In this document: piece by piece, positions 1 through 17,630 of the stretch | Layout of the letters: each line of letters starts with the position of its first letter | Position numbering within the stretch: the first letter of the stretch is position 1 | From: Paraspadella gotoi | Taxonomy: Eukaryota > Animalia > Chaetognatha | DNA: 17,630 nucleotides | Reading direction: 5' to 3' | Assembly: GCA_051294375.1 (NCBI GenBank) | Contig: JBJCIZ010000020.1 | Span: 1 to 17,630 of the forward strand | The notes under the pieces: model-generated | Told to the model about the DNA's origin: nothing | Seen by the model: the letters and a program-made list of their open reading frames with translations, nothing else | Database searches by the model: none | Made by a program: the position numbers and the translations under genes

Positions 1-70
1 TTTCAATGGCGTATTTATTTATTTAAAGTTTTTTTTTTGTTTTTTTTTTTTCGAAAATCCTTATTTTGGA

Positions 71-650
71 ATGGAGGCCGACGAAGATGATCCAATGATC
101 CCTATAAAGTGTGGGCTCACGAAGCGAGCGTCGATGGCCGAAAAGACGATGGCGCTGCAGATCGCGGTCCACGAGGCGTTGCACGGTCGCGTCGGCTCGG
201 ACTCAGCGTCGAACCAGTTTCGAAAGACGCTGAATCTCGTGGCAGAATCCTACGCTCAGATCTGGAATCCCGAGGAAAATTCGTCGAGCAAATTCTCTTA
301 CTCGACGTCTCGTCGACGACCTCGGATCGAAATCGGCGTCGGTTCTGGCAGCGACGGAGGCGCTCATCGCGGCGCTGGATTCCTTGACGCGGCCGAGGAT
401 TGGAGCGGGATTCTCAGTCGCTCGCGGGAAGGCCCGAAACGTCAAGATCAATGTTTGCCGCTTCGTTGGACGCGTCGGGCGGACGTCGCGCGTCGTATCG
501 AAGCGGACCTTGCGCCGTGTGATGAGAGGGTCGCGACTCTTCCGCGCCGTCGCGATCACGACGTCGAGAAAAACAACAACGGAGAAAGAACTTCTGACGA
601 AAGACGAGAATGATTCTCTCGAATCCGAGATTCCATTTTTTTTTTTTCTA
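71..650 (+). other. GC-rich host segment, possibly a coding exon of unknown product
   Basis: Sharp GC/CpG-rich island with several overlapping open frames, flanked by poly-T DNA. Frame, strand and product could not be determined. Confidence 0.3.
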
Positions 651-1314
651 AGCGCGGGATTTTTGTCGGTAGAAGTCTCGGAAACAAGATAGGGATGTTA
701 GAAAATCATGGATAATGCGAATTTTTATACATTCTATACATAACTAACACTCAGTTCTAATAAATAAAATTTTTCATGGTTTTTATTAATTGATCATATT
801 TCGACATGTGGTATGTAATAAAATATGGGGTGGGCTGAGTCCTGGTCGCCGGCGTTGGTGATGTAGTTTTAATTCCGTAAAAGAGCGTAGTTTCCGATGA
901 TTACAGAGTGTGGTAAATGGCGTGTCCACACTCGTCCTGACAGGAATCCTTATCCCAGTTCCACGTATTTAATTATTATTAAATCTGAAATGAGAACAAG
1001 AACTATTAGAACAAGGGTAATTGCAGTATCTACTTATTACTCAGTATCACTTATTTACACAAAATAATCAATGCATGTCAAAATATGAAGCAGTAAAAAA
1101 GCGCAAATAGAAAATCCACTTGGAAAAGTTGTAGATGAATCCACAAAATGTTGTGAGTTTGTAATCCACTTTAAATTGAGACCCTCTTTGGCACCCCAAG
1201 TCTTGAGTTATTAAGCCTTCAAGTCTTACTAGACTTTAAACCCGGAAATTATTTTAACCCTTAAGTCCTATGGGACTTTTAACCACCTTAGTCTTTAGAG
1301 ACTATTATAATTTG

Positions 1315-1409
1315 GGACTTAGACGTTTTCAGTCTCTCCTGGACTTGAACGTTTTTTATCTTCTCGGACTTAGACGTTTTCAGTCTCTCCTGGACTTGAA
1401 CGTTTTTTA
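1315..1409. repeat. 44-bp direct repeat x2 (period 51) inside the LTR, each with two GGACTT..ACGTTTT sub-units
   Basis: ggacttagacgttttcagtctctcctggacttgaacgtttttta at 1315 and 1366. Counterpart at about 15815-15910. Confidence 0.9.
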
Positions 1410-1587
1410 AGAACCTTTTCCAGCCGGACAGAGTTTCACCTTACACACCAGAGGGTCTCAGCAGACTCTCCCAGAGGTCTGCAGTGCTCCTCCTTATATA
1501 GACACCTTCTGGGTCACATGATCAGCCCTTGGGTCTAGCTCTTGCATTTTGGAGGGCTAAATCAACTATCTTGTTGGTTTTTACTAA

Positions 1588-1835
1588 TGCTTTAGCTATT
1601 CTTTGGCTTTTGCCAGTGCTAACCTAAAAGTTTAGGGTCATTAAAATTATAACTGCTTTTGCTTTTGCTAAAGCTACTTAAATTAGAGAAGCTCATTAAA
1701 GTTCCCTCTGCTTTTGCTTTTGCCTTAGCCAATTCAATTAGATAAGCCTATTATAATTCTGTCTTGCTTTTGCTCTTGCTTTAGCTAAAGTTTAGTCTCA
1801 TTGTTAATTGCTTTTCTTTAGGAAAGCTATTGCTT
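1588..1835. repeat. Degenerate ~55-bp tandem array in U3 (TGCTTTTGC core), enhancer-like
   Basis: tgcttttgc(t/c) cores at 1654, 1709 and 1765, with degenerate copies near 1604 and 1809. Upstream of the TATA box on the minus strand. Counterpart at about 16085-16330. Confidence 0.75.
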
Positions 1836-1916
1836 ATTAGTTAAATTATCAGTTATTCTATGAAACTATAAAATATATAAACTAATAAAAAATTACCCAC
1901 CTCATTTTTTATTACA

Positions 1917-1926
1917 TCCTCCCCGG
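1917..1926 (-). other. Polypurine tract (3' PPT)
   Basis: Minus strand CCGGGGAGGA directly abuts the TGTA start of the 3' LTR. Short, but in the canonical position. Confidence 0.8.
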
Positions 1927-2021
1927 TCTAGCTTTCTGCATGTCCTCATGCACATTTTAACAATTTTAGCTATATTTCACTCTGTCATCATCCATGTTGC
2001 TTTTTTCATTACACAGTGCCT

Positions 2022-3122
2022 TTAAAACCGGATGTCCATTAAGTATTCCTCCAGGGTCGTGGGCAAACCTAACTGATAATACTGATTAATTAGGACCCTT
2101 CCTTGGTTGTTTTTCACTAATTCATGTCTTATGGTCAGCTTAGATAAGTGTTTCAGCGATTTAACCAATCCTACTGGGTTTTCTCTCTCATCATCTCCTG
2201 TCATATACTCCACCATCTTCCTTGCAACAAACTCGTGGTGTGAATGCTTTGCCGCCTGCCAAGTTGATATTTTCTTGGTTGCTGCTGCATTAACATAGGC
2301 GGTATCTTCTAAGTTTCCTCCCGCTCTATACACTCCTTTTATCATCCTTAGATCACCTACATGGGAAGCGTTCCACATTGGGGTTGCCTGGAAAATATTC
2401 TTACTTAGTATTTTTGTTACTGGGATATCCAATATTGCCTCAGTTACTTTACGGTTTCCTTTGTTAACAGCATAATGAAGCACTGTATTTTGATTCTTAT
2501 CCCCTTGATTAATATCAGCTCCCTGTTTCGTTGCCAATTGTATTACTTCAATGATAAATTCATCATCCAGATTATTAATACATAAATTCATCAGAAATGT
2601 ACGCCCTGTATAAGCATCCTGTTCTTCAGTTGGCACTCCCTTCCCTAGCAATATCTCATATAATCGTAAATATGCAATTTCTGAGTTAGATGCCAGTATA
2701 TGTAAGAGAGTTTCACCATGTGTATTCTTTACTTTATAGTCATCCTCACCCATTCTGCTGCTAATTAGTTCTATAATTACTCTTGCTTTTGCATCATATT
2801 TTTTTCTTAATATTTTTGCCAAAGATATATTTCCCGAGTAATCAGTTTTCATTACATTTCCTCCTCGTACAAGCATCTGTTCCACAATATTTATTCTTTT
2901 CCTAGTCACGGCTATGTGCAATGGCGTTTGGCCATCATGGAACCTTATTTCATTAGGGTCGAACCCTTCTTCAAGTAACCTTTTAGTTACTCTTTCTCTT
3001 CCATATTCCGCTGCCATATGTAAGGCACCATTCATTTTTTCTCGTAATGCGAGCTCAATTGCTTCGTCATCTCTGCCGCCCAGGAATTTAACGTATAGTC
3101 CATAATTTGTTAGCGGAAACAT
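2022..3122 (-). CDS. Ankyrin-repeat protein with C-terminal SOCS box (ASB-like)
   Basis: Ankyrin motifs GALHMAA, GQTPLHIAV, GETLLHILA, GRTFLMNLC, NTVLHYAV, ATPMWNAS. The C-terminus SLKHLSKLTIRHEL...LGLPTTLEEYL fits a SOCS/BC box. First ATG is at 3122; the track start at 3158 is a TTG. Confidence 0.88.
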   Translation of the reverse strand: MFPLTNYGLYVKFLGGRDDEAIELALREKMNGALHMAAEYGRERVTKRLLEEGFDPNEIRFHDGQTPLHIAVTRKRINIVEQMLVRGGNVMKTDYSGNISLAKILRKKYDAKARVIIELISSRMGEDDYKVKNTHGETLLHILASNSEIAYLRLYEILLGKGVPTEEQDAYTGRTFLMNLCINNLDDEFIIEVIQLATKQGADINQGDKNQNTVLHYAVNKGNRKVTEAILDIPVTKILSKNIFQATPMWNASHVGDLRMIKGVYRAGGNLEDTAYVNAAATKKISTWQAAKHSHHEFVARKMVEYMTGDDERENPVGLVKSLKHLSKLTIRHELVKNNQGRVLINQYYQLGLPTTLEEYLMDIRF

Positions 3123-3284
3123 ATTTACTACACCTAAGAATAAAGAAATGCATGCCAAATCATTTATTTAGAACAACATATTTGTAGAACTTGTTCTACA
3201 TTCCCCCCCCCCGGACAAAACCTCGAACCATAAAACAAAACAAAAATTTTTATCACTTAATCATTTAATTTCCACTATTTTAAT

Positions 3285-4886
3285 TTACAGATCAAGTTTT
3301 TTCGGCTCTTTCAGTGATTTCCTATTTCTCAATCGTTTATTCCAACTTAATTCTTGGTCATTCTTCTCCTTAATCACTAACTCCTCCGTCTCTTTGTTAA
3401 CTTCCTCCTTGCAGTTGTCTGTATCGGAAGACGCCGGCCATTGGTGTCTCCCGTCTTCATCAGCGGACTCAGTCGACGTATCTGAGAAATCCGATTGATC
3501 CTCCATAATTATACCACCCTTTTGACATTCCCTTGGTTTTAATTCCCTAACCACTGCCTTCTTCAACTTCCTAGCATTCACTATCCTTTCAAAACCTGTC
3601 TCGTTATTTTTAATTACATATGTGGTTGGGGAAATGACCTTAATTACCGTATGATTAATCTCATAAGATTTAAATAGCTTTCCCGGTTGTAAAGGAGGTT
3701 TGAACCCCACCAACTCACCCACTACATAAGTCGGGACATTCGCTTTCTCTTTAGATTTCTCCCTTCTTAACTCCTGTCCCTCCTCATACCTTAAATTTAA
3801 CATTTCCATAACTTTTCTTCTTGCCCGTAATCGTTCTTCCAATTCATCCAAGATTTTTCTTTCTTTCCAACCGTGACTTTCTTTCCTGGTTAGAATAAGA
3901 TCTATTGGTTCAATAAGATTTCTCCCGTAAACAATAAAATTTGGCGATACCCCTGTTGCTGTATTTATACTACTATTATAGGCGCTGAATAAAAGGTTAA
4001 GCTGTTTTGGCCATTCTGAGATGTAACCATCCAGCATAACTGTCAAAATGTTGGAAATATTTCTGTTTACTTGTTCAATTAACCCATTAGCTGCAGGATT
4101 ATAAGATGCCGTTAGACATATATCAATTTGAAGACTCTCATAGATCGTTTTAAGTATTTTACCCGTGAACGTCCTTGCTCTGTCTGAGATAATGGCCCTC
4201 GGAACACCAAATCTTGGGATCCACGAAGAAATGATAACTTCTGCAACAACCGATGCTTCCATCGTGGGCGTAGGATACGCCATTACAAATCTCGATGCAT
4301 GATCTATAATCACCAGCACAAACCGGTTTTTAGATTGATATAGTATAGATCTGTCACTAACTGGTAAGGGGCCTTTAAAATCGTAAGATATGCATCCACC
4401 AATGTCATAACTATCCACACTGATAGGCTGGATCTCCGCCATTGGTTTATTTTTTGGACTTTTTCTACGTACACATAACGGACAAGTATTTATAAAGTCA
4501 GAAAGTCTAACAACCATTCTAGGAAAATAAAAACTTTTTACTAGCTTAAAATATGATTTACTTATTCCATAATGAGCGGATAAGGGACTACCGTGAGTAT
4601 GATATAAAATTTCGCTCACCTTAGACTCTGGTACAACAACGGCTTTGTCACCACCCGAAGTTTTTCTTAGCAGAACACCATCGTTGTCAATTTCTAAAGA
4701 CCGATAGACAGACTTGTACCCTTTGATAACCTCGTTCTTGAAATCGGGCTTTTGCCCCTCTAAAATGGCTTTCTTTACTAGTTTAATGCCTTCATCCTGG
4801 TTTTGAGCATACGCGAGTTCATTTTTTCGTGGTATGTTGGTTTCAAAAAGGTTGACAACATTATCATTCAATTGTAGTTCCATCAT
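3285..4886 (-). CDS. Stand-alone retroviral-type DDE integrase
   Basis: HHCC zinc domain (HGSPLSAH...CPLC). Catalytic D (SYDFKGP), D (ISDRA) and E (NGLIE) with 35 residues between the second D and E. Degenerate GPY/F-like segment (GKLFKSYEINHTVIKV) and acidic/basic tail. Confidence 0.95.
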   Translation of the reverse strand: MMELQLNDNVVNLFETNIPRKNELAYAQNQDEGIKLVKKAILEGQKPDFKNEVIKGYKSVYRSLEIDNDGVLLRKTSGGDKAVVVPESKVSEILYHTHGSPLSAHYGISKSYFKLVKSFYFPRMVVRLSDFINTCPLCVRRKSPKNKPMAEIQPISVDSYDIGGCISYDFKGPLPVSDRSILYQSKNRFVLVIIDHASRFVMAYPTPTMEASVVAEVIISSWIPRFGVPRAIISDRARTFTGKILKTIYESLQIDICLTASYNPAANGLIEQVNRNISNILTVMLDGYISEWPKQLNLLFSAYNSSINTATGVSPNFIVYGRNLIEPIDLILTRKESHGWKERKILDELEERLRARRKVMEMLNLRYEEGQELRREKSKEKANVPTYVVGELVGFKPPLQPGKLFKSYEINHTVIKVISPTTYVIKNNETGFERIVNARKLKKAVVRELKPRECQKGGIIMEDQSDFSDTSTESADEDGRHQWPASSDTDNCKEEVNKETEELVIKEKNDQELSWNKRLRNRKSLKEPKKLDL

Positions 4887-5032
4887 TTAAGGCTTAACTG
4901 GAACAGAAAGCGAACGATTAAACTATTTTAAACAGTGCAGTTGAATTACGGAATGAACTAATTAATATATTTATTTTTCCGTTTACTAATGTTAAGCACG
5001 TCATATGTACAGTCCCATTGGTACGGATAAAA

Positions 5033-6328
5033 TTAGTCAAATAATTCACCACCTTCAACAAAGTCAATGAACTGCCTTGTGTGTGTGCAAGGACATTCAA
5101 TTGCATCGTCATGGCAGTGGAAGCACTTTCCGCACCTTTTGATACCACAACATAATACCTTACATCCCGGATCCAAGTGTCTTACCTCCAAGCAGAAACA
5201 GTTGCTGCATGCCATTTTGGCATTATAAAAACGTACTAAGCTTGAGGGAAATCTCTCCTTTTCCCTTAACACCAAACATTCCTTAATCCATGGCCTCACG
5301 AATTTAGATATATTAACCTTGCACTTTTGGCTCATACGTATTTCTTTTAGTTTTTTCATATAAAATTTAACCCCACTTTCAATTTTCCTTCCAGTTTCCT
5401 CTTCCTTTTTCCCATCCTCTTTTTTGTCATCTTTCATGCTTTCTTTTTCATTCCCTTCTATATCCCTTTTGATACTTTTACTACGGTCATTTTCAGAAAA
5501 GCCTCTATTCTGATAACCAATCGTCCTGTATTCCCCCCTATTAGTATCAGTATTTTCTATTCCCCTAATTTCCTCTTGTGATACAGTAACAACAAGTTCC
5601 TCACCCCATTCCGATTCTTTATCACTATCATAGTCCTCACCCCCTTGACGACATAATCCCTGAACTTTATCCAGTTTATTCTGTACCATAGCTATTATTT
5701 CATTTTTATATTTATATATATCTTTGCTCTTCTCATACAACTCTTCCTGTATTATATCAACCTTTCCTTTCTCAATTTTCACCTTCTTCCACTCGGCTTC
5801 TAGTTTTTCCCGTTCTTTTATAAAAGTTGAGAGATCTACGTGCTCATAAAATGATTTTAAGAGTGGTTTCGTACGGGAAATCTCTTTAGGTAATGAAGCA
5901 GTATCATTGGGCCCCGGCGGAACTTGTTCAAATTCGCGCATTTCCCTCACTACATCATTAAGTACTCCTTTGGTTTTTAATATATACGTCAGGGTCTCGA
6001 TTTCTATCATATGTACTTTATCCAAACCAATATCTTTCTTTAAATATACCATAGCCCTCTCCTTTTCGACATTATTAAAACGTAATTTCGGATCTAGTTC
6101 CGTGACTAATTTTCTTAGCTCTCGGGAGTTATTAATTTCTTCTTGGAGTTGTTTATATAGTCTCCCGTTATCATCTTTTTCACACTCCAGTTGGATTTGA
6201 AGGATACGATAATCACTCTTGAGTCGCTCAATAGCTTTCTTACTTCTAGTTTCCGTCTCCCTTATCTTCTCCAGACAAGCGTCCAAATCGTTGGTCTCCA
6301 TTTTATATGATTCAATATTCTTTTCCAT
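5033..6328 (-). CDS. Hypothetical protein: coiled-coil N-terminus, charged linker, Cys/His-rich C-terminal domain
   Basis: 431 aa intact ORF in AT-rich DNA. E/K/L-rich heptad-like N-terminus. C-terminal CSNCFC...H...C...CC...CGKCFHCH...CPCTH. Confidence 0.8.
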   Translation of the reverse strand: MEKNIESYKMETNDLDACLEKIRETETRSKKAIERLKSDYRILQIQLECEKDDNGRLYKQLQEEINNSRELRKLVTELDPKLRFNNVEKERAMVYLKKDIGLDKVHMIEIETLTYILKTKGVLNDVVREMREFEQVPPGPNDTASLPKEISRTKPLLKSFYEHVDLSTFIKEREKLEAEWKKVKIEKGKVDIIQEELYEKSKDIYKYKNEIIAMVQNKLDKVQGLCRQGGEDYDSDKESEWGEELVVTVSQEEIRGIENTDTNRGEYRTIGYQNRGFSENDRSKSIKRDIEGNEKESMKDDKKEDGKKEEETGRKIESGVKFYMKKLKEIRMSQKCKVNISKFVRPWIKECLVLREKERFPSSLVRFYNAKMACSNCFCLEVRHLDPGCKVLCCGIKRCGKCFHCHDDAIECPCTHTRQFIDFVEGGELFD

Positions 6329-6506
6329 TCATCTGCTTAAATCAAGTTCACAAAAAATCAATAACATTATGGGAATAATTGAACGTGAGTAAATTAAAAT
6401 TAACTGACCGGACTTGATTGACCGTAATATAAGTAGAACAGAACTGCATCATTTAAGATTTTTATTAGTTCTGTATACCATACAATAAATATTTACAAAC
6501 AAAAGA

Positions 6507-7091
6507 TTAATTACTGTCGTCTTTATCTTCAGGCCCTATGTATGACAATACATTGTTCATTGATGACGTTAATTCTTCATGCATCATTACGTGAACTATC
6601 ATACGGTTTTTATTATTTCTAACCTTCTGACAATTAAAACACTGATATACTACAGGGTGAACCCTTTCCATATGCCTGTCTATATAAGTTCTATTAGGCA
6701 ATGGTTTATCACAAATATTACAACTAAAATTATGACGTTTTATGCGCCTTTTTAAACTTTTTGTCTTACTAAACCTTTTCTCGCATTCCAAGCACTGGTC
6801 CGTCTTATTTTCCGCCAACAGTCCGTAACGTTTCAAGCGCGGGGCTCTACCGAATCTCAACTTCTCGCTTTGCGACGTCATACTTCCTTCGTCCGTGATC
6901 ATGTGCGTTGACTCCGCACTTTCGACACCACCCATGAGCCTCATTCGGTTCTCGTTCGTCTAATCATTCTTACGTGGACGATCATCTTCCACGCTGGCGC
7001 GGGTTGGACTTAGCGCTTCGACGTCCGCTCTCATTGTCCGTTTCCTTGTATCAGGATTGATTAACCATATTTTGCTCTGGGGCATGGCCAT
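6507..7091 (-). pseudogene. Second three-finger C2H2 zinc-finger gene (ZnF-B), interrupted by an in-frame TAG
   Basis: The frame of track ORF 6507-6944 extends upstream to ATG 7091 (MAMPQSKIWLINPD...) through a single TAG at 6960-6962. Fingers CLEC...RIKRH (first His replaced by Arg), CNIC...HMERVH and CFNC...HVMMH. Confidence 0.72.
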
Positions 7092-7408
7092 TATTTCTGA
7101 CAAACACGTAATCTGTCAGTTAATTGTAAAAAAAAAGACGGTCAGTGAATCCGAATGGGTTAAAAGAATATAATAAAAGTGAATGGCAAAACACACGGCA
7201 AAACACTCATGGAATAATAGCCAATAATAAAAAAAAGAAAGACCGCGTTGGCCGTTTAATAACATTGTTACTCCTAAAACAAGAATAGCAAAGATGTAAA
7301 AAGGGTGGCTTGGCCATGGAAATATAGGAACAAGATCATTGACATTTCTGTCAACATACAGAATTAATGAAAATTGTGTCCAACAGAACGTAAAGAATCA
7401 CGTTTAGA

Positions 7409-7609
7409 TTAAAAAACTAAAAACTCCCGTTGAGTCACGAATCTTTCAGAACCAAAATATAATTGATTAAAATAATATATCAAAGCCACCAGCATTGGTG
7501 AACGAATTAAAAAAGAGGTAGTATGTTGAAATAAAAAATAAAAAACGATCACTTTGATCCACCCCATACTCTTCAGCATCTGTAAAACTAGGATCAATTC
7601 GTCATTCAT
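7409..7609 (-). CDS. Candidate small hydrophobic protein (66 aa)
   Basis: ATG overlaps the ZnF-A stop (ATGAATGA). Two hydrophobic stretches, though T-richness alone could produce these. Confidence 0.3.
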   Translation of the reverse strand: MNDELILVLQMLKSMGWIKVIVFYFLFQHTTSFLIRSPMLVALIYYFNQLYFGSERFVTQREFLVF

Positions 7610-8321
7610 GAATTTTCACTTTCGCGGCAATTTTGCGCGCCTCTTGGGAAAATTCCCGATGCAGTATCACATGGAGCGTAACTGAACTGCCCTCCCGAAA
7701 TTGCTTTCCACACACCAAGCATTCGTATTGTTTCGGGTGATACGCTTTATTGTGCAGTTCATACATCAACCGGTTCTTTATTTTTCTTTCACAATGTGTA
7801 CAAGTGTAAGAGTGGCATTTTAAGTGTCCGTTCCTTGCGTGAGGCGTCGAGAAAGTTTCTTGACACTGCTGACAATCATAGACAGTGGCGCCTTCGTTTT
7901 CTTCACCGCTTGCATCATCAGGCTTCTCAGTCTTTGTGTTGGCATTCACCGCGTAGGTTCCCACGTTTTCAATCCGCTGCCTTTTGTGCGGGGGAATCTC
8001 GCTGATTACAATGACGTCCGCCTCTCCCTTGACGACCGTTTCGTCTTCCCAAGCCTCTTCTTTTAGTGGTTCGCCGAGCTGCTTTTCGGGCGGAATGTGT
8101 AGATTCTTCAGACTCTCAGCTGGGCTCCCGAGTTTCTCCGTGTCCTTAGCTTCCTCATTCGCCGCTGCTGGATCATTGGCTCTGTTCCAACACATCCACG
8201 GATCTGTTCTAGAGGACATGGGCGCTTGCTCCAGTTCTCCGAGGATTCCGTCCGCATCTATGTTGCCCGTCAAGGATGCGTAGGTCGCCAGCGAGTGATG
8301 CCGATCTGCGACGCGTTCCAT
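7602..8321 (-). CDS. Three-finger C2H2 zinc-finger protein (ZnF-A) with acidic/disordered N-terminus
   Basis: Fingers CQQC...HLKCH, CTHC...HNKAYH and CLVC...HVILH. Start codon in GCCATGG Kozak context. Confidence 0.88.
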   Translation of the reverse strand: MERVADRHHSLATYASLTGNIDADGILGELEQAPMSSRTDPWMCWNRANDPAAANEEAKDTEKLGSPAESLKNLHIPPEKQLGEPLKEEAWEDETVVKGEADVIVISEIPPHKRQRIENVGTYAVNANTKTEKPDDASGEENEGATVYDCQQCQETFSTPHARNGHLKCHSYTCTHCERKIKNRLMYELHNKAYHPKQYECLVCGKQFREGSSVTLHVILHREFSQEARKIAAKVKIHE

Positions 8322-8421
8322 GGCGTATTGATCATATCCGCCACCCGTAGGGGCGCTATCGAGCTGTTGAATTTATTTATACGCCCTTATTATCAACGCC
8401 AAAAACACTGCCCCCAACCCG

Positions 8422-8645
8422 TTTATTCCTTTATTGATTTATTCATCTATTTATTTATTTCTTCATTTATTCGTTCATCTATTTATTTATTCATTTAATT
8501 TATTCATTTATTTACTTATTTCTTAAATACTACTCTTCTATTCAATCCATTCTATTATTTATCTATTTTAAACTGCCTCTAAATAACTAACTCCTCTCAC
8601 TCATAACTATTATTAAACTAATTACTAATTATTTATTTATTCTGA
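8422..8645. repeat. Low-complexity (TTTA/TTCA)n tract
   Basis: Repeated tttattta/ttcattta units upstream of ZnF-A. Confidence 0.8.
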
Positions 8646-9318
8646 ACTAAACTACACCATGCTTAATTATACTTCATGCTTTAACTACTCAGATTTTCCT
8701 ATCCCAAACCTTCAACCCAGACACTAACCAACGCTGTTGGGATCATCAGGTTTATCTCTTCCGACGGGTCATAATCATCAGGCGTGTACAACGGGTCCTC
8801 CGGCGACGTTTCGTTGAGTATCGGTTCCATCTTTTCGTCACAACGGGATAATTGGTTACACCACGAATCTCCGGTACCGTTAGAGCAGAACAATTCGTTC
8901 AGTCGCGGAGACGTTTTGAAGAAACACTAAGACGTTTCAGTTTATAATACGAGTTCCTTGGTTGTTTAAATCGCACAATTAAGTTTCACCCAAGCTCGGC
9001 GGCTTGCGATAATTATAATATTCCCAACCTGTTCAAAGAATGAGCAAAACCGACTTCATCTTTCGTTGTTTCAATTTACAAAGTAATCATCAATTTTTAA
9101 CCCTTTTTTCTTTTCACGCAACTTTTACAGAAATTTTACGACAGCGGTTAGTGTTTAGACTAAGTTCACACAAAAACTAAACTCGTCTTTGAACGGAACG
9201 TACTAACAGAGCCACATGATAATTCATTATTACCGTAATAATAGACATCGCGCGTCTATGTTTCTATGAACAGAACTTTGGACGGAACATAATAACTAAA
9301 AAATTACAACTATAGTTA

Positions 9319-10107
9319 TTACCGAAACAATAAGGCTTGTGCGTTTAACAGTTTCAGGGGGGTCTTGTACCATTCTACTTCAACTACATTTACTCGAATG
9401 CCGAAAAATACGGAGGGGATGTACCTATTTGTACTCAGACGATTAAACCATCCTAAATTAGGTATGTTCTGAGGCAAAATACTAATAGATTCACGATGAT
9501 CAATAAAAATTTTATCACTACGGACATGCAAGTCCATTCCAAAATGTAAAATACTAGCTAAATTTTCTACTTGTTTCATACTTAATCTTCCATTATAAAT
9601 TAAGTACTTACCAACATTGGAATGTTGTATGTTCTGCGCTAGAGAGTATAACAACCAATACTCTTGGAAGTCTGACATAATTAATCCTTTACCGAATTGT
9701 AAGACTTCTGCAAATACACAACCACACGAACTAACTTTTCCTGTGAGCTCAATAGAGGCAAATTGATATTTTCCGTTATCTGTAGCTTCTTTAAACCATC
9801 TCACTAATCGTAATATGTCTTCCACCTCATTCATCTCTGTTAAACGTCTAGAAATAATAATATGTACATGCTGATAAGCAGCGCTTTCAAATGCCGCCTG
9901 TATCGGCCAGAGTTCCTCTGTTTCGCACAGTGTGAGGATTAATGTTTTTCTAGGGAGGACGTTGAACAGTGTAGAGCTCTCTACTTGGATTTCCAAGACG
10001 CTTTCGAAGATCATTGACGCTTCGGCCGCCGCCATCTTGTCTCGAGTCGGGAGATACGCCATAATATCTCGTTTCACGTCCGCCGGTAATTCTCCGATTG
10101 TAGTCAT
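9319..10107 (-). CDS. F-box domain protein
   Basis: The N-terminus IGELPADVKRDIMAYLPTRDKMAAAEASMIF follows the F-box pattern (LP..v...I..YL...D). The remaining ~220 aa were not recognised. Confidence 0.75.
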   Translation of the reverse strand: MTTIGELPADVKRDIMAYLPTRDKMAAAEASMIFESVLEIQVESSTLFNVLPRKTLILTLCETEELWPIQAAFESAAYQHVHIIISRRLTEMNEVEDILRLVRWFKEATDNGKYQFASIELTGKVSSCGCVFAEVLQFGKGLIMSDFQEYWLLYSLAQNIQHSNVGKYLIYNGRLSMKQVENLASILHFGMDLHVRSDKIFIDHRESISILPQNIPNLGWFNRLSTNRYIPSVFFGIRVNVVEVEWYKTPLKLLNAQALLFR

Positions 10108-10208
10108 CTGAGGAGGAATTAAAATTTTCTATCAATATACGTCTATTACAATTATAACCGTTACTAATTAATTATAGGGGCAAGGTTAACCGTACACTCT
10201 TGTCATCA

Positions 10209-10442
10209 CTAAAAACCGAATAAGTAAGTTTGACAGAAAATTTCATAGGCAGCGGCACCTATACCTGGCGATAATATAATATACGTACGAATTACGTAAC
10301 AAAACCTCCAGCCTTTTGAGGTTTTCATTGTAAAATTAAACCAGACGATCGGGATTTTCCAAGGACCACAAGGATTTTTCACTGAGAAAAGCCGGTGTCT
10401 TAGTCTGGACCGTCTAAGGATGACCACCCTTCCCTTTTTCAT
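10209..10442 (-). CDS. Candidate small basic protein (77 aa)
   Basis: ATG start with a CAG 9 nt upstream. Arg/Lys-rich N-terminus MKKGRVVILRRSRLRHR. Same strand as all element genes. Confidence 0.4.
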   Translation of the reverse strand: MKKGRVVILRRSRLRHRLFSVKNPCGPWKIPIVWFNFTMKTSKGWRFCYVIRTYIILSPGIGAAAYEIFCQTYLFGF

Positions 10443-10682
10443 TTTAGTTGGCTGGCCGGGCCGGATATAAAATTTTCCCTTAGGTCACCTTATAAACCCA
10501 TGACCAATAGCCGCGGTTTTCTAACGACCACAAGTGCGCACCACCCTGCGTCCACTTCACCCTCGTCTCTCTATAATTCAATATTGAATTACAACCATTA
10601 AAATAAACACAATAGTAGGTTAATCGCCGTCACTAAATTATCCCAGGCTTGGCACCACCCCTGCCATTTAATGCTTTCCTTA

Positions 10683-13631
10683 CTACAGTTCCTCTACATC
10701 TTTAGAAGCAAGAATCCGAAAACTACCCTCTTTTCCTCCTTGCTTCCTTTTCCAGACAAATCTAACCAATCCCACTCCGATATTTCCTTCCAACTCCGTT
10801 TCCTTTTGCATTTTTTTCAGTGATCGTCTAAGTTGTACTTCTTTACCCTCCCCATAATTAACTTCTACTACTTCATTATTTATTATTAACTCCTGATTTT
10901 CGTCAAAATCTTCCTTAGTGGGTTTTTCCACTTTAAACCATGATCTTAAGATAGGGCTACCATAATCAGTATAAAGCCTCAAAATGGGCTTTTCCATTTT
11001 AACCGCCATTCTTTCCTCCTCGTTGGCTTCAAATCCATACGGAACTCTACTCAGAATGTCAGCTACAATCATTTCCCTACTGTCCCCAGGTTTATGGTGA
11101 ACCTCAAAGTTAAATTGAGATAGAAAATTTAACCATCTGCTAATCTTTTGAGAGGAGTCTCTCATAGTAGAAACATATCTTAAACTACTATGGTCTGAGA
11201 AGACAATAAAGGGGGATGTTAAGTAATGTCTATATTTTTTAACCCAATGGGCAATAGCAAAACACTCTTTCTCCGTTGTACTCCACGAAACTTCGGCTGC
11301 CTTCAGCGTGCGCGATCCATAAGCTAATAAACTTAATTCTCCGTCAGGTTTTAATTGCGACAGAGTAGCGCCGATCCCTTTTCCTGATGCATCGGTAGTT
11401 AATATCATGGGGAAATTAGGATCATAATAATTTCGTATAGGGGCACTTATTAATTTTTGTTTTAAGGTATCCATGGCAACTTGACACTCATCCGTCCATC
11501 TAAATGGAACACCTTTTCTTGTTAGATTAATAATGGGAGCTAAAATCTGACTATGAGATTTAATAAAAGTCCTATAATAATTACAAATCCCAAGGAACCT
11601 TTGGACGCCTTTAACATTTTTAGGTATAGGAAACTCAGTAATTGCGTCAACTATATGTTTACACGTTTTTATGCCTTTATCAGAAATTACAAAACCTAAA
11701 AATTCTACCGACGATTGAAATAATTTACATTTTACCGCTCTTAATTTCATACCTCCCTCTTTTAATTTTTTAAGTACCCGGATTAATCTCTCATGTGCCT
11801 CTTCTAAAGTTTCCCCAAAAATTATCACGTCGTCTATGTAAACGACAGCCTCCTTCCAACACAACTCTCCTAGAACTTCCTCCATTAATGCTTGATAACT
11901 TGTTGGCCCCGAATTTAAGCCAAACGGAAGTCTTTTAAACTCAAATAGCCCTTTCCTAGTAGAAAAGGCCGTTATTGGCCGCGATTCCTCCTCCAAGGGG
12001 CATTGATGATACCCCTGGAAAAGATCTAACGTGTGAAACCATTTCTGGCCACGAAATTGATCTAACAGTTGTTCTATATTAGGCAACGGATGGGCTAATG
12101 GAGCAACGCACAATGAATTAACTGCTCGGTAATCAATGCACAGTCGCCACCGGTTCTTCCGTTCCTCCCAAGATAAAACTATTCTGGAGTTCCAATTACT
12201 ATTGGAGGGCTGTACTATATCTTGTTTTATCAGTTTCTGGACTTCCTTATCTATAAAGGCATTCTGTTCTTCACTAAATTTACGATTTTTCTGCTTTACA
12301 GGATTAGTATTAGGTTTAAGGATTATTTTATGTCTAGTCTTAGTAGTATGGCCTACTGGTCGATCCTCCCACTGAAAGACTTCTTTATGCTCATCTAATA
12401 TTTTTCTTACTTTAGCTTTTTCCTCATCACTAAGCTCTGATTTTTCTAGCCCAAAATTTACCTCATCTAGTCTTTTACTATCAAAATCCTCATAGACCAT
12501 AGTATCTTCTACACACTCGTCACTCTCTAAACACTCAGCGAATTCTTCCTCATAATTTTTCCCATCCCCCACTGTATTTATTAATATAGGCATAGGACGT
12601 GAAAAAGAAAATGTGCCAAAATCCTCACCTTTCACTAAAGCCAACCTACGGGTCCCTTGGTTTATTACTTGAGTAATTACCACTGGCTTAGCTATGGTCA
12701 AAACCCTACTAGCATTAATACCATATTTCCATATATCTTTAAATGGCTGAATAATACCTTCGCCCCCTTCATTTTTTAGGCCCTCAATTTCTACCCTAAT
12801 ATCACAAGCAGATTGTGGTGGCAGAACGACATCCTCTGCTATTCTAACCTTTCTTACACCCCTCTGATCCTTATACATAAAATTTATATGCATTTGCCCC
12901 GCCTTAGGTTGGAAGCAAGTACCATCTGCTAAATTAACATTAAATGAATGACGGCATATCTCATCTAATCCCAATAGACCTTGAATTTCTAATCCCCTTA
13001 TAACATAAAATTTAATAGTAGCTGAATAATTACGTTTAAAACCATAAAATATAACAGGTAATTTTACGTATCCTATGCACTCGATCTTTGTCCCATTAAC
13101 TGCCTCAAACTGTGAACCATGAGGGTGTAAAATATACCTCTTATCTGAATTAATCATATCATACATTTCTTCTGATAATAAAGTTTTCACGCTACCAGTA
13201 TCAAAGCCCAACCTAGTTTCTATACCCCTTACTCCTACAGTAATATACGTGTAAGTAGGGAGAGACTGGAAATCGTCATAAACTTCTTCTTCTACTATTT
13301 CCAGATCCTTATCAATCTGCGGGCTTTCTTCCTCAACCCACCCAAAAATTTCCTCGGCCCCAGTGATTTTTTCAATTTCTACATTTGAAATTTTTTCCTC
13401 ATGGGACTTATTTTCTTTCTTACTTAACTCTTCATTAACTACTCTTACTTTGGGGCTCTCCTTTACTTCTAAACTTTGTTCCCCGTTTATTTTTGGGATT
13501 ATATTTTTCTCAGTTTGATTGTTTAAATTAAACCGGACCTTTTTCTTTACATCCGTTACCCCTTTTATTTCGCTTTCTAGTTTATTTTTTATCCCAGGCT
13601 GCCCCCCTCGCGGGGGGCTATTTAGTTTAAA
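10683..13631 (-). CDS. pol: Pol: aspartic protease, reverse transcriptase and RNase H, with no integrase; expressed as Gag-Pol by frameshift
   Basis: Frame is stop-free from 13643 to 10683; the track start at 13211 is an internal TTG. Protease: ITVGVRGIETRLGFDTGS. RT: WRLCIDYRAVN, LDLFQGYHQ, LPFGL, YIDD. RNase H: TTDASGKGIGA, TEKECFAI, SDH, ADILSR. Confidence 0.96.
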   Translation of the reverse strand, partial: FKLNSPPRGGQPGIKNKLESEIKGVTDVKKKVRFNLNNQTEKNIIPKINGEQSLEVKESPKVRVVNEELSKKENKSHEEKISNVEIEKITGAEEIFGWVEEESPQIDKDLEIVEEEVYDDFQSLPTYTYITVGVRGIETRLGFDTGSVKTLLSEEMYDMINSDKRYILHPHGSQFEAVNGTKIECIGYVKLPVIFYGFKRNYSATIKFYVIRGLEIQGLLGLDEICRHSFNVNLADGTCFQPKAGQMHINFMYKDQRGVRKVRIAEDVVLPPQSACDIRVEIEGLKNEGGEGIIQPFKDIWKYGINASRVLTIAKPVVITQVINQGTRRLALVKGEDFGTFSFSRPMPILINTVGDGKNYEEEFAECLESDECVEDTMVYEDFDSKRLDEVNFGLEKSELSDEEKAKVRKILDEHKEVFQWEDRPVGHTTKTRHKIILKPNTNPVKQKNRKFSEEQNAFIDKEVQKLIKQDIVQPSNSNWNSRIVLSWEERKNRWRLCIDYRAVNSLCVAPLAHPLPNIEQLLDQFRGQKWFHTLDLFQGYHQCPLEEESRPITAFSTRKGLFEFKRLPFGLNSGPTSYQALMEEVLGELCWKEAVVYIDDVIIFGETLEEAHERLIRVLKKLKEGGMKLRAVKCKLFQSSVEFLGFVISDKGIKTCKHIVDAITEFPIPKNVKGVQRFLGICNYYRTFIKSHSQILAPIINLTRKGVPFRWTDECQVAMDTLKQKLISAPIRNYYDPNFPMILTTDASGKGIGATLSQLKPDGELSLLAYGSRTLKAAEVSWSTTEKECFAIAHWVKKYRHYLTSPFIVFSDHSSLRYVSTMRDSSQKISRWLNFLSQFNFEVHHKPGDSREMIVADILSRVPYGFEANEEERMAVKMEKPILRLYTDYGSPILRSWFKVEKPTKEDFDENQELIINNEVVEVNYGEGKEVQLRRSLKKMQKETELEGNIGVGLVRFVWKRKQGGKEGSFRILASKDVEEL
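13601..13631 (-). promoter_or_regulatory. -1 programmed ribosomal frameshift signal (gag-pol)
   Basis: Minus strand T TTA AAC slippery heptamer (13631-13625) in the gag frame just before the gag TAA. It is followed by a 6-nt spacer and the hairpin GCCCCCC-GCGA-GGGGGGC. The -1 frame is open, by manual translation, through to pol. Confidence 0.92.
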
Positions 13632-14971
13632 GGAACCGTGGCATTAGAATTTACCGGTTGTAACGCTGGGACTTGTGAGGGCAAGCCCGTCTGATTATCC
13701 TGTCCCCTTACGCGGTTTTGAGCCTCCCCCAATTCTGTGTTCGCTGGCAACCTAAAAAGTCCTCTTTCTCTATCCTCCCTTTGTATTTTTATAAGGTAAT
13801 TGTCTGCTAATTGTAGAGGACAGTCCCTTCTCAAATGCCCTTTTCTTTCACAACGATAACATGTCACGTTCCTATCCCTATTCCAGTTACTGTCACTTCG
13901 TCTCCTCATATTTCCATTATTACCATTATTATAATTATTGATATTCCTATTATAATTATTCTCATTACCCCAGTTATTGTTATTGATAGGGTTATTATTT
14001 TTACCTTGATTTTGACCTTCCTCATTCACTTTCCCTATAAAACTATTTTGTGCGATAAGCATTTCATCAGCCTTTTCTATGAGCTGATCTAAAGAGGCTT
14101 CTTGACCCACGGTCGCTTTTAAAATCTTACGGTCGGTCAGTGCAACTGATTCATATACCTTAAATCTCATCATCTCAACTGCAAAAGTTCCGGCCGGATC
14201 CATGCCTGCCCTTCGAATATACATGCGACACCTATCAATAAATGTAGTTATACTTTCCTTCGGGTGTTTTTTAGCAGAAAGAAAATTTTCTTTATTTTTC
14301 TGCTCAGACTGAGGATCCAGCTTCCTTCTTAACGCTTGAATTAAAATCTCAGTGCTTATTTTTTCCCTTTCCGTTAGGGTATCATAAGCCCTTTTTGCGG
14401 CCCCATTCAGGCTAGGTGGTAAGGCCGCTACGAACTTTCTTATATCCCAACCGTTACAAGTAATACATGCCTGTACCTTATCCACCCACTCATCAAATTC
14501 CAATCCCACTCCGTCATACGATGGTAACTTCTGATTATTAATTGCCCGCGAATTTTCTTGAGAAATACGTAACCTTTCAAATTCTGATGCCAACGATTCC
14601 ATATCATCCCTATGATATTTTTGTTGATTAAGAATTAAATCCCTATATGTATCCTTATCCTCCTCCGCTTGCTTTTGAATTATATTTATATTCCGCTGCA
14701 TATTCTCATTTTGACACCTTAATACGTCGGAGATCATTTTACCCATCTCTTTTAACGCTTCGCCGATCTCACCCATTTTCAGTACTTTCCCTTTACTCCC
14801 GTCGGTTTCCTTCAAACCCTGGGAATTCTCAGTTACAAATATTTCTTGAGGGAGTTCTAACTCACTCTCCCCTAACCCGCTAGTATCCAGTGAAACCTTA
14901 AATTTTTTAACCGCACTATTAGTTAATTTAGCTGCCTGCCTTTTCGTTAATCTCGATTTTTTATTTTCCAT
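13622..14971 (-). CDS. gag: Gag (coiled-coil N-terminus, capsid-like region, Asn-rich linker, CCHC zinc knuckle)
   Basis: 449 aa ORF. Zinc knuckle CYRCERKGHLRRDC (CX2CX4HX4C). Capsid-like LPSYDG...FDEWV motif. Located between PBS and pol. Confidence 0.93.
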   Translation of the reverse strand: MENKKSRLTKRQAAKLTNSAVKKFKVSLDTSGLGESELELPQEIFVTENSQGLKETDGSKGKVLKMGEIGEALKEMGKMISDVLRCQNENMQRNINIIQKQAEEDKDTYRDLILNQQKYHRDDMESLASEFERLRISQENSRAINNQKLPSYDGVGLEFDEWVDKVQACITCNGWDIRKFVAALPPSLNGAAKRAYDTLTEREKISTEILIQALRRKLDPQSEQKNKENFLSAKKHPKESITTFIDRCRMYIRRAGMDPAGTFAVEMMRFKVYESVALTDRKILKATVGQEASLDQLIEKADEMLIAQNSFIGKVNEEGQNQGKNNNPINNNNWGNENNYNRNINNYNNGNNGNMRRRSDSNWNRDRNVTCYRCERKGHLRRDCPLQLADNYLIKIQREDRERGLFRLPANTELGEAQNRVRGQDNQTGLPSQVPALQPVNSNATVPLN

Positions 14972-15007
14972 AAAATTTAAACTCTTACGTATTTATATTT
15001 CTTATTC

Positions 15008-15268
15008 TTAAGAGTATGTAACACCACAATTAATATCGAGCGACCCGTCACTCACCCTCGTAACAACAATATTATGTATTAAAACCCGTTCAGGCACTGG
15101 CGAAACTGGCAAAGGATTTAACGCGTTCTGTATTAACCTTCTTATTATCTCAGGGTTGATATTGTGAACTCCTGTCACTCTACCCAAATTATTACGTTGG
15201 TTACTATTACTATTATTATTGTTACCGGAACCTTGCCCACTACTATCACACGGTTGCCTTAAAACCAT
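15008..15268 (-). CDS. Candidate 86-aa upstream ORF between PBS and gag
   Basis: ATG at 15268 (MVLRQPCDSS...), open to 15008, filling most of the leader. No recognisable domain. Confidence 0.4.
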   Translation of the reverse strand: MVLRQPCDSSGQGSGNNNNSNSNQRNNLGRVTGVHNINPEIIRRLIQNALNPLPVSPVPERVLIHNIVVTRVSDGSLDINCGVTYS

Positions 15269-15271
15269 AGG

Positions 15272-15279
15272 ACTCACCG
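15272..15279 (-). promoter_or_regulatory. Candidate major 5' splice donor
   Basis: CG|GTGAGT, with the intron starting at 15277, 9 nt downstream of the PBS match. This is where retroviral major donors lie. Confidence 0.65.
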
Positions 15280-15286
15280 ATTCGAA

Positions 15287-15301
15287 CCACGTTGGGCGCC
15301 A
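15287..15301 (-). other. Primer-binding site complementary to the tRNA-Lys(CUU) 3' end
   Basis: Minus strand reads TGGCGCCCAACGTGG, 2 nt after the 5' LTR end. This matches the first 15 nt of the known Lys1,2-type PBS TGGCGCCCAACGTGGGGC. Confidence 0.93.
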
Positions 15302-15303
15302 GT

Positions 15304-16413
15304 TGTAATAAAAATATGGGGGTGGGCTGAGTCCTGGTTGCCGGCGTTGGTGATGTAGTTTTAATTCCGTAAAAGAGCGTGGTTTCCGACGATTACAGAG
15401 TGTGGTAAATGGCGTGTCCACACTCGTCCTGACAGGAATCCTTATCCAAGTTCCACGTATTTAATTATTATTAAATCTGAAATGAGAACAAGAAATATTA
15501 GAACAAGGGTAATTGCAGTATCTACTTATTACTCAGTATCACTTATTTACACAAAAGAATCAATGTATGTCAAAATATGAAACAGTAAAAAAGCGCAAAA
15601 TAGAAAATCCACTTAGAAAAGTTGTAGATGAATCCACAAAATGTTGTGAGTCTGTAATCCACTTTAAATTGAGACCCTCTTTGGCACCCCAAGTCTTGAG
15701 GTATTAAGCCTTCAAGTCTTACTAGACTTTAAACCCGGAGATTATTTTAACCCTTTTTAGTCCTATGGGACTTTTAACCACCTTAGTCTTTAGAGACTCA
15801 GCTATTATAATTTGGGACTTAGACGTTTTCAGTCTCTCCTGGACTTGAACGTTTTTTATCTTTCTTCGGACTTAGACGTTTTCAGTTCTCTCTCTGACTT
15901 GAACGTTTTTTAAGACCTTTTCCAGCCGGACAGAGTTTCACCTTACACACCAGAGGGTCTCAGCAGACTCTCCCAAGGTCTGCAGTGCTCCTCCTTATAT
16001 AGACACTTCTGGTCACATGATCAGCCCTGGGTCTAGCTCTTGCATTTTGGAGGGCTAAATCAACTATCTTGTTGGTTTTTTACTATGCTTTAGCTATTCT
16101 TTGGCTTTGCCAGTGCTAACCTAAAAGTGTTTAGGTCATTTAATTAAACTTGCTTTGCTTTTGCTAAAGCTACTTAATTAGAGAAGCTCATTAAAGTTCC
16201 CTCTGCTTTTGCTTTTGCCTTAGCCAATTCAATTGATAAGCCTATTATAATTCTGTTCTGCTTTTGCTTCTTGCTTTAGCAAGTTTAGTCTCATTGTTAA
16301 TTGCTTTTCTTTAGGAAGAAAGCTATTGCTTATTAGTTAAATTATCAGTTATTCTATGAAACTATAAAATATATAACTACTAATAAAAAATTACCCACCT
16401 CATTTTTATTACA
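15304..16413 (-). repeat. 5' LTR
   Basis: Starts TGTAATAAAA at 15304 and ends TTTTATTACA at 16413. Near-identical to 814-1916 and directly adjacent to the PBS. Confidence 0.96.
15995..16001 (-). promoter_or_regulatory. LTR TATA box (copy in 3' LTR at 1494-1500)
   Basis: Minus strand CTATATAAGG, with a candidate AGT initiation site about 32 nt downstream (15969). Confidence 0.65.
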
Positions 16414-17630
16414 AATATAAAAATAAGTGGTTTGATATTGACTCGATCGAAAAATACTGATTAATACAAACTTTTAAGAAGAAAGTATGTGAATGATATT
16501 AATTTTATGTACATTACATATAACACTCTTGCATAGTCTGATTAATGTCGTTGCTAAGAAAAATGATTGTTTGACGAATCAGTCCGCACATTCTTAATGC
16601 GGAAGTCACCGATTCAACCGTATCGGTGATTTGATTCTTGTTAAATATTGAGTTGAATCATCACGAATAGGAATGCAATTTAATTCTTACTGTTAAATGG
16701 AATAGACAACTAACAAATTAAACTTATTAATTAATTAATTAACTTTGCATTCCCATTGGATTATTACTTAGCTGTTACTAAAATAAGTTGATCAATCGTT
16801 CTTAAATGTGACCTTTTCCGTAACCTTTTTGACCTTTTTGACTTTGGTCACCAGGAGGTCAGCGCCGCCTGTATTAGATTGTGTTCAGTCTCTCACTATG
16901 GTTACGCGCAATCATAGTATTTTTTTTTCAAATTTCTTTCATCATGTACCAACCTCCATCCTTGTCCATCTTTTCCAAAAAAAAAAACCTATTGAGATTG
17001 ATCAAAAAAATATATATAGTTATTTAATTATTATCATCTCCAATTATCAGTCCCACTTCTATCCACATCATAACTGACATTTTTATTTATTATTCCCGAC
17101 TTTACACATTTTCTTAATTAACATTATGCTAATAACTCAATGATCATTAATATTGGATAAGAAGTACTGATTTCTCAATTATTCCATATTAAAATTTAAA
17201 AAAATTCTTTTCTTTACAAAAAAGAACACAGAACAACATTACACGCGTGCAAGGCCGTCGAAGAGTATATTGAAAAGTCTAACGTGAGGTATGTGCAGCA
17301 TATAACAGGAAAAGCACAAAACAGTTGGAGAAAACAAATGTTTTATATTTTACTCATTTTCCCACCCATTTAAGTATTATATTTTTTTTTTCAAAGAATT
17401 AATTCAATTCCAATATTATCAAACAGTTTCTGTTATCATTTTGAGAATAATTCATTTGTTCTTAAGTTATAATATACTAAAAGTTAGATTTATAGAACAT
17501 CTAGAAGAGGAAAAATAATACCCAAGTTATTAAAGTCCGGTCAGTCAGTCACGTGTACATACTCATTGCATACGTGGTTAGCGTCCATCACCACATTCAC
17601 ACTAAATCTCAGCAGTGCGGTAAAATTTCC

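What the first reader, a model, noticed from the sequence alone, without database searches (positions are those of the whole stretch)
3120..15279. One donor after the PBS and acceptor-like sites before the downstream ATGs: subgenomic mRNA programme
Seen on the minus strand: donor CG|GTGAGT (15277). Acceptor-like sites are ttttaattcctcctcag|ATG (F-box, 0 nt from ATG), gtgtttgtcag|aaataATG (ZnF-B, 5 nt), gatttaagcag|atgaATG (coiled-coil, 4 nt, weak tract), ttcgctttctgttccag|11 nt|ATG (integrase), catttctttattcttag|11 nt|ATG (ankyrin-SOCS) and ccggcccggccag|9 nt|ATG (77-aa ORF). gag has none, as expected for unspliced RNA. Inference: each gene is expressed by alternative splicing to a shared leader, as in complex retroviruses, or by spliced-leader trans-splicing if the host uses it.
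Basis: partly seen in the sequence, partly recalled or inferred. Interest (0 to 1): 0.85.

Follow-up and report, generated by a model that had tools for sequence, protein, structure and literature searches.

The report
Gypsy retrotransposon with free-standing integrase gene
This jumping gene keeps its integrase enzyme as a separate gene far from the polymerase gene, a layout shared by its relatives, and likely makes integrase and several extra proteins from separately spliced messages, though the splice that would join them to a shared leader has not been seen.

Summary
The window holds a 15.6-kb Ty3/gypsy-like LTR element (16413-814, minus strand). All seven quoted splice-like motifs are present. 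The acceptors before the F-box-like, integrase and ankyrin-SOCS ORFs are among the best 5 of 1007 internal AGs. Two more are moderate, and the coiled-coil one is poor. The donor sits 9 nt before the first ATG of a 698-nt leader that has no ATG (0 of 2000 shuffles). RNA contigs show five GT-AG introns, none of them predicted: two build a 287-aa ZnF-A and three cut into integrase. No joint from 15278 to any listed acceptor appeared, but contigs cannot show absence. 'One donor' and 'gag has no acceptor' do not hold. The main result lies beside the finding: integrase is split from Pol across a lineage. All 11 close Pol relatives lack integrase, and 16 stand-alone integrases were found. In 4 of 5 clusters readable upstream, the residue before the start Met fits an AG|ATG acceptor. 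Integrase therefore needs its own route to translation, most likely a spliced mRNA. Its 5' partner is probably the LTR leader (0.45); SL trans-splicing or internal promoters remain open.

The parts
15304..16413 (-). 5' LTR (TGT...ACA), TATA-like box at 16001
   Evidence: aligns with the 3' LTR, 1070 matches, 16 mismatches, 31 gap blocks; no target-site duplication seen
15278..15975 (-). ATG-free R-U5-PBS leader (5' end inferred from the TATA box); holds an acceptor-like site at 15477
   Evidence: 0 ATG in 698 nt against 10 CAT, 0 of 2000 dinucleotide shuffles; 15477 scores 4.9
15287..15301 (-). primer binding site, tRNA-Lys type (assignment recalled)
   Evidence: sequence directly, 2 nt after the LTR end
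15272..15279 (-). candidate major splice donor CG|GTGAGT (intron would start at 15277)
   Evidence: joint 6th of 807 GTs; not seen used; contig 14225-15331 crosses it unspliced
15008..15268 (-). ORF0, 86 codons, first ORF on the unspliced RNA; acceptor-like site at 15106 and donor-like site at 15055 lie inside it
   Evidence: no Pfam match
13622..14971 (-). gag (CCHC knuckle; weak Retrotrans_gag)
13601..13631 (-). predicted -1 frameshift signal: TTTAAAC (13631-13625) and a 7-bp hairpin (13618-13601)
   Evidence: hairpin -18.1 kcal/mol; slippery-site rule recalled
10683..13628 (-). pol (protease region, RT, RNase H) ending without integrase
   Evidence: 11 of 11 close relatives lack integrase domains and 9 of 11 end at the same motif
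10209..10452 (-). 77-codon basic ORF with moderate acceptor-like site at 10452
   Evidence: no Pfam match; contig 10344-11069 crosses the site unspliced
9319..10108 (-). F-box-like ORF (262 aa) with top-ranked acceptor-like site at 10108, 0 nt before ATG
   Evidence: F-box label rests on Atlas look-alikes (0.96, recognition below threshold); no Pfam F-box match, no homologue
8927..9028 (-). 102-nt GT-AG intron upstream of the ZnF-A start codon
   Evidence: RNA joint 8926/9029, one contig, side 28
7602..8830 (-). ZnF-A gene, two coding exons (8830-8729, 8363-7602) around a 365-nt GT-AG intron (8728-8364); 287 aa, no internal stop
   Evidence: RNA joint 8363/8729 with 183 letters on the short side; frame check; C2H2 matches
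6507..7097 (-). ZnF-B region: moderate acceptor-like site at 7097, ATG 7091, in-frame stop at 6962-6960, 145-codon C2H2 ORF from 6944
   Evidence: contig 6604-8129 crosses the site unspliced and lists no difference at the stop
5033..6333 (-). coiled-coil ORF (431 aa, Cys-rich tail) with a weak acceptor-like site at 6333
3285..4898 (-). stand-alone integrase (533 aa; H-H-C-C zinc motif, D169 D235 E271) with top-ranked acceptor-like site at 4898
   Evidence: 16 stand-alone relatives
3482..4619 (-). three GT-AG introns inside the integrase ORF: 4619-4304, 4162-3886, 3789-3482; every spliced form computed truncates integrase
   Evidence: RNA joints 4303/4620, 3884/4162, 3481/3790, one contig each, side 28; products 95, 270 or 369 aa
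2022..3134 (-). ankyrin-repeat SOCS-box ORF (366 aa) with strong acceptor-like site at 3134
1917..1937 (-). purine-rich tract before the 3' LTR
   Evidence: sequence directly
814..1916 (-). 3' LTR

Best explanation
This gypsy-like LTR element carries integrase as a gene of its own 5.8 kb downstream of the pol stop, and it likely expresses integrase, the ankyrin-SOCS gene and the F-box-like gene from spliced subgenomic mRNAs that would join the ATG-free LTR leader (donor 15277) to acceptors 0-11 nt before each start codon. Shown: separate ORFs; Pol without integrase across the lineage; strong acceptor-like sites at three starts; an ATG-free leader; splicing of the element's RNA at five other introns. 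Inferred: one LTR-started precursor. Unspliced RNA serves as genome and makes Gag and, by a -1 frameshift, Gag-Pol. Splicing puts each downstream ATG first on its mRNA. ZnF-A is reached through extra exons (acceptors 8927, 8364). Further splicing inside integrase would lower the yield of full-length enzyme. Integrase would have to reach the cDNA in trans, not as part of Gag-Pol.
For: Acceptor ranks. Leader with 0 ATG in 698 nt, 0 of 2000 shuffles; the ATG-to-ATG gap 16018-15268 is the longest in the element. A top-1% donor among only 4 GTs between LTR end and first ATG, at the last place that keeps the leader ATG-free. 11 of 11 Pol relatives (63-75% identical) without integrase domains, forming one long-stemmed group (SH-aLRT 100, quick tree). 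16 stand-alone integrases, 14 with a Met near this start. Residue before that Met is Q, Q, Q, K, I in the 5 clusters open upstream; Q/K/E make up 10 of 150 other extension residues (p 9e-5; 1e-3 if P0008 and P0015 count once). Five GT-AG joints in run X1 show that the spliceosome acts on this RNA. Precedent for LTR-to-downstream-gene splicing: Tor3a env (PMC4402516, passages), Cer1 (PMC3315495, passages).
Against: 0 of the 6 predicted joints among the 7 joints listed for X1, and none of the 4 loose ends listed for 2990-10600 lies at an acceptor, while junction contigs of depth 4-16 were kept elsewhere. Single contigs cross 15278, 10451, 7096 and 4897 (variant at 4901, 79 letters from its contig's end) unspliced; this shows that unspliced RNA exists, not that spliced RNA is absent. 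An ATG-free leader is also needed for gag alone. The one leader-type intron seen (9028-8927) uses a local donor, and good donor-like sites lie closer to the acceptors (5185, 6408, 3789, 3718). The coiled-coil site is poor. The evidence from relatives is protein-only (Q may be CAA), and Pol and integrase relatives could not be paired on one contig.
Confidence: 0.45

Rival explanations
1. The same acceptors are spliced-leader trans-splice sites: the LTR transcript is cut into single-gene mRNAs like an operon, each capped by a host SL RNA.
For: Acceptors lie 0-11 nt from the ATG, and AG|ATG appears likely in relatives; short spacing is typical of SL sites (recalled). AATAAA lies 34-133 nt before the last three acceptors (6466, 4975, 3168). 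All listed look-alike clusters of the F-box-like protein are mainly nematode (the tool warns that this gives no range). Cer1's spliced mRNA occurs with and without SL1 (PMC3315495, passages). A short SL tag would be a dead-end tip that assembly may drop (my knowledge of assemblers), so X1 contigs do not test it.
Against: Host not identified; no SL tag seen. AATAAA in 3 of 7 gaps is not significant (p 0.073). It does not explain the well-placed donor at 15277.
Confidence: 0.25
2. Downstream genes are transcribed from internal promoters, and the acceptors pair with nearby donors as ordinary 5'-UTR introns.
For: The intron 9028-8927 has a local donor and lies upstream of the ZnF-A ATG. Strong donor-like sites sit within a few hundred bases upstream of the integrase and coiled-coil acceptors (5185, 6408). 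Tor3b/4b env is driven by an internal promoter (PMC4402516, passages).
Against: Only one TATA-like box in the downstream gaps (8381, inside the ZnF-A intron). Several gaps are only 100-175 nt. No local joint to 4897, 3133 or 10107 was listed either.
Confidence: 0.2
3. The acceptor-like sites are by-products of T-rich gaps, and downstream ORFs are read from long RNAs by reinitiation or internal entry; the introns seen are cryptic host splicing of a foreign RNA.
For: T-rich gaps hold other good AGs (7274, 7348). The strict rule fires often on the antisense strand. Unspliced contigs cross four of the sites. The integrase introns yield only truncated products.
Against: Rank test within gaps p 0.0013; Q/K before Met in relatives; most gaps hold several ATGs; the ZnF-A intron joins two open frames exactly.
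Confidence: 0.1

Closest known systems
Ty3/gypsy LTR retrotransposons (Ty3; Metaviridae)
   Same: LTRs, PBS, purine tract, gag with CCHC knuckle, PR-RT-RH order; the best solved-structure matches of Pol are Ty3 RT (243 bits, against 129 for foamy Pol); D-x35-E integrase.
   Different: Integrase is not part of Pol. It is a separate 533-aa ORF 5.8 kb downstream, behind five other ORFs. About 96 of the 109 more distant Pol hits listed carry integrase domains (counted by eye).
C. elegans Cer1 (PMC3315495, PMC10309623; passages)
   Same: Gypsy element with an unspliced genomic RNA and a multiply spliced mRNA for an accessory protein; consensus splice sites inside coding sequence must be skipped; SL1 is added to the spliced form.
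   Different: Cer1 keeps integrase in Pol and has one accessory product; no export factor like CERV is identified here.
Oikopleura Tor elements (PMC4402516; passages)
   Same: One family uses either LTR-leader splicing (Tor3a) or an internal promoter (Tor3b/4b) for a downstream gene: the same alternatives that are open here.
   Different: The downstream gene there is env; here there is no env-like match, and the downstream genes include integrase itself.
Foamy viruses (PMC7828637; passages)
   Same: An enzyme gene is translated from its own spliced subgenomic mRNA and must be packaged without Gag fusion.
   Different: There the whole Pol, integrase included, is the spliced product; here PR-RT-RH is predicted to come by frameshift and only integrase stands apart.
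Planarian Burro giant gypsy elements (PMC6431247; passages)
   Same: Large gypsy elements with ankyrin and ubiquitination-related cargo.
   Different: Burro packs most cargo and integrase into one polyprotein of about 4,900 aa; this element is about half the size and splits its genes into separate ORFs.

Membership tests
Ty3/gypsy LTR retrotransposons | Two LTRs with TG...CA ends, PBS and polypurine tract | tested here: met
   PBS type recalled
Ty3/gypsy LTR retrotransposons | RT and RNase H closest to Ty3/gypsy | tested here: met
   (Ty3 best); the tree has no named reference clades, so the clade within gypsy is not placed
Ty3/gypsy LTR retrotransposons | Domain order PR-RT-RH-IN along the genome | tested here: met
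   the protease rests on a DTG motif seen and a weak Pfam match
Ty3/gypsy LTR retrotransposons | Integrase made as the C-terminal part of Pol | tested here: not met
   pol stops at 10683, integrase starts at 4886; 11 of 11 close relatives lack integrase. Hence a variant, not a canonical member.
Ty3/gypsy LTR retrotransposons | Target-site duplication | tested here: not met
   flanks ATATT and TACCA; may reflect recombination between copies or assembly
Complex-retrovirus splicing programme | Major donor between PBS and first ATG | tested here: inconclusive
   motif and position fit; use not seen
Complex-retrovirus splicing programme | Several acceptors joined to that donor | tested here: inconclusive
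   three strong sites; 0 of 6 joints in one contig-level run
Complex-retrovirus splicing programme | Element-encoded factor that exports unspliced RNA | not testable with these tools
   candidates by composition only (Arg-rich 77-aa ORF, zinc fingers)
Retroviridae or env-bearing gypsy | env gene | tested here: not met
   no env-like Pfam match in any of the 10 element ORFs scanned
SL-resolved operon | Host SL RNA and SL tags at acceptors | not testable with these tools
   no genome held; contigs only; no Rfam match in the window

The most novel reading that the evidence does not exclude
A whole lineage of gypsy-like elements has moved integrase out of Pol into its own spliced (possibly SL trans-spliced) mRNA, supplies it in trans, and uses introns inside the integrase frame as a switch, within a programme of seven or more mRNAs that also makes ubiquitin-ligase adaptors (F-box-like, ankyrin-SOCS).
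Probability: 0.35. Interest if true: 0.87.

Novelty: new variant of a known kind. Interest (0 to 1): 0.7.

Why it matters
In retroviruses and LTR retrotransposons integrase normally enters the particle as the tail of Pol. A lineage that makes it apart must have another way to bring integrase to the cDNA and can tune integration separately from reverse transcription. That makes the reason for the usual fusion testable in a natural system. The element also shows retrovirus-like complexity of gene expression without env, and real exon-intron structure in its cargo genes. Splicing of subgenomic RNAs as such is known (Cer1, Tor, foamy viruses); the free-standing integrase is the part I did not find described in searches, which leave out Repbase and most subscription journals.

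Tried and rejected
No genome is held for this window, so copies, the host's splice consensus and an SL RNA could not be checked. Low cover at 10102-10355 says nothing about the F-box site. Two of the 7 joints (12642/12750, 14398/14601) have non-canonical ends and are set aside as likely diverged sister copies. Metagenome scan: 16 loci, all 24-32% identical; the 10 whose ORFs I listed were not family members and gave no DNA for comparison. Viral scan: none. F-box homologue search: none. The long proteins among the top hits of the unrestricted integrase search are multi-copy polyproteins at about 21-33% identity to this integrase, not fused family members. The operon-type AATAAA pattern is not significant. 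TATA scan: no pattern before downstream genes. The donor-like site at 6973 has no convincing partner acceptor within 170 nt. Single-sequence fold of the Cys-rich tail failed (pLDDT 39.6) and was not searched. Flank frames gave no Pfam match, so the host is unidentified. No tRNA or Rfam match. Earlier-findings look-ups were empty. The careful tree did not finish; the quick tree is cited (47 of the 120 listed hits used). No supplementary files were read.
Full report
What the window holds. The minus strand carries one LTR element from 16413 to 814. The LTRs (16413-15304 and 1916-814) align with 1070 matches, 16 mismatches and 31 gap blocks; no target-site duplication is seen. Inside lie a PBS (15301-15287; tRNA-Lys type, recalled), an 86-codon ORF0, gag, a predicted -1 frameshift signal, pol with RT and RNase H, a 77-codon ORF, an F-box-like ORF, two C2H2 genes, a coiled-coil ORF, an integrase and an ankyrin-SOCS ORF. 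Among solved structures Pol is closest to Ty3. The integrase has its zinc motif and D169, D235, E271 with 35 residues between the last two. The F-box label rests on Atlas look-alikes only; Pfam and a homologue search gave nothing.

The observation. All quoted motifs are at the stated places. With a simple hand-set score over 1007 internal AGs, the F-box, integrase and ankyrin sites are among the best five; only 2 of 292 other ATGs have so good an AG within 12 nt. The 77-aa ORF and ZnF-B sites are in the top 5.4%, the coiled-coil site in the top 28%. Ranked only within their own gaps, the six sites give p = 0.0013. A stricter rule marks 3 of 6 starts against 3 of 49 other intergenic ATGs, but also 63 of 506 antisense AGs, so composition explains part of the contrast, and the sites were first chosen by eye. 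The donor is joint 6th of 807 GTs and one of four GTs between the LTR end and the first ATG.

The donor is not alone: 15055 scores higher and RNA uses five others. gag does have a candidate acceptor (15106), and the first ATG of the unspliced RNA opens ORF0, not gag. At the coiled-coil site the first ATG is out of frame, and ZnF-B has a stop at codon 44. That fits a scanned leader, but gag alone would need one too.

RNA. One run holds the element (X1, contigs, RNA status a guess). Seven joints were listed over 700-16600, five with GT-AG ends. The best supported (8363/8729, 183 letters on the short side) joins an exon starting at ATG 8830 in frame to ZnF-A, giving 287 aa without a stop. A second intron (9028-8927) lies just upstream. 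Three lie inside integrase and truncate it to 95, 270 or 369 aa; unspliced contigs over two of them are also listed. These four joints rest on one contig each with 28 letters on the short side, below the tool's caution line of 30; their canonical ends are the reason to trust them. None of the six predicted joints was listed, no loose end lies at an acceptor in 2990-10600, and contigs cross 15278, 10451, 7096 and 4897 unspliced.

Relatives. Eleven Pol proteins at 63-75% identity have RT and RNase H but no integrase domain, while about 96 of the 109 more distant hits listed have one (counted by eye; only lengths 454-1448 were searched). Nine of the 11 end at the same short motif as this Pol, and with it they form one long-stemmed group (quick tree, 48 rows). 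Sixteen integrases at 44-58% identity stand alone, 14 with a Met near this start. A search without length limit returned no fused protein of that closeness among its top hits. In five clusters the frame is open upstream of the Met, and the residue before it is Q, Q, Q, K or I; Q and K fit CAG|ATG or AAG|ATG. This is protein-level evidence, since no DNA of family members could be fetched, and the two sets of relatives could not be paired.

How it likely works. Integrase must be translated apart from Pol, behind many upstream ATGs, so it needs its own mRNA 5' end or internal initiation. I put about 0.9 on processing or initiation that makes separate mRNAs, split as LTR-leader splicing 0.45, SL trans-splicing 0.25, internal promoters with local introns 0.2, and 0.1 on none of these. 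The donor's position and the ATG-free leader favour the first; the very short AG-to-ATG spacing fits the second; the one leader-type intron seen fits the third or a multi-step splice.

Comparison. Cer1 has an unspliced genomic RNA and a spliced accessory mRNA found with and without SL1 (PMC3315495, passages; PMC10309623, passages). Tor elements use LTR splicing or an internal promoter for env (PMC4402516, passages). Foamy viruses make whole Pol from a spliced mRNA (PMC7828637, passages). Burro elements carry ankyrin cargo in a polyprotein (PMC6431247, passages). Bdelloid elements carry third ORFs, said to be typically spliced (PMC5408684, passages). None of these passages describes an integrase separate from Pol, and searches listed no title or abstract that does; searches were for precedents. 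The library omits Repbase and most subscription journals, and no supplements were read.

Verdict. Observation partly confirmed, interpretation partly supported, a new variant of the Ty3/gypsy kind. Subgenomic splicing is known; a lineage-wide free-standing integrase with a likely acceptor at its start and introns inside its frame is the surprising part. Interest 0.70.

Noticed in passing
window 15268-15008 (-): An 86-codon ORF opens 9 nt inside the candidate intron, in the gag frame but cut off from it by three stops; 15265-14972 holds no ATG (expected 4.7). How gag is initiated is open: leaky scanning, reinitiation or a 172-nt splice 15277-15106.
   Followed up: partly
window 15722-15477 (-): Donor-like and strong acceptor-like sites inside the LTR leader; the stretch between is also ATG-free (expected 3.9). 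No joint was seen.
   Followed up: partly
window 8520-8420 (-): An A-rich short tandem repeat lies inside the ZnF-A intron; all 4 loose ends fall here, so it varies between copies.
   Followed up: no
window 1869-1916 and 14361-14601: Contigs of X1 share only the first 48 or so bases of the LTR, or a diverged gag stretch, which suggests sister families in the same host.
   Followed up: no
window 6604-8129: The X1 contig here differs by 12 substitutions, a 3-nt insertion and a 4-nt deletion in ZnF-B, and lists no difference at the stop at 6962-6960; ZnF-B looks decayed in two copies. ZnF-A and ZnF-B are related (24% over 86 aa).
   Followed up: partly
window 10442-10209 (-): The 77-aa ORF begins with an Arg/Lys-rich stretch, as RNA-export proteins of complex retroviruses do (recalled); no family match.
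   Followed up: no
window 5371-5033 (-): The coiled-coil protein ends in a Cys/His-rich domain that may bind zinc; no Pfam match and the fold failed.
   Followed up: partly
window 1-813: GC- and CpG-rich flank with open frames on both strands; an X1 contig runs from the LTR side into it (loose end at 702 matches the window), which suggests the run is from the same species.
   Followed up: partly
P0174, P0178: Two more integrase-only proteins (541 and 549 aa, 33% identical) may belong to other lineages with separate integrase, or be fragments.
   Followed up: no
L003 5694-21031, L004: An unrelated gypsy element with gag, full pol and an 858-aa third ORF with a signal-peptide-like start; L003 holds a second gag-pol start downstream.
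   Followed up: no
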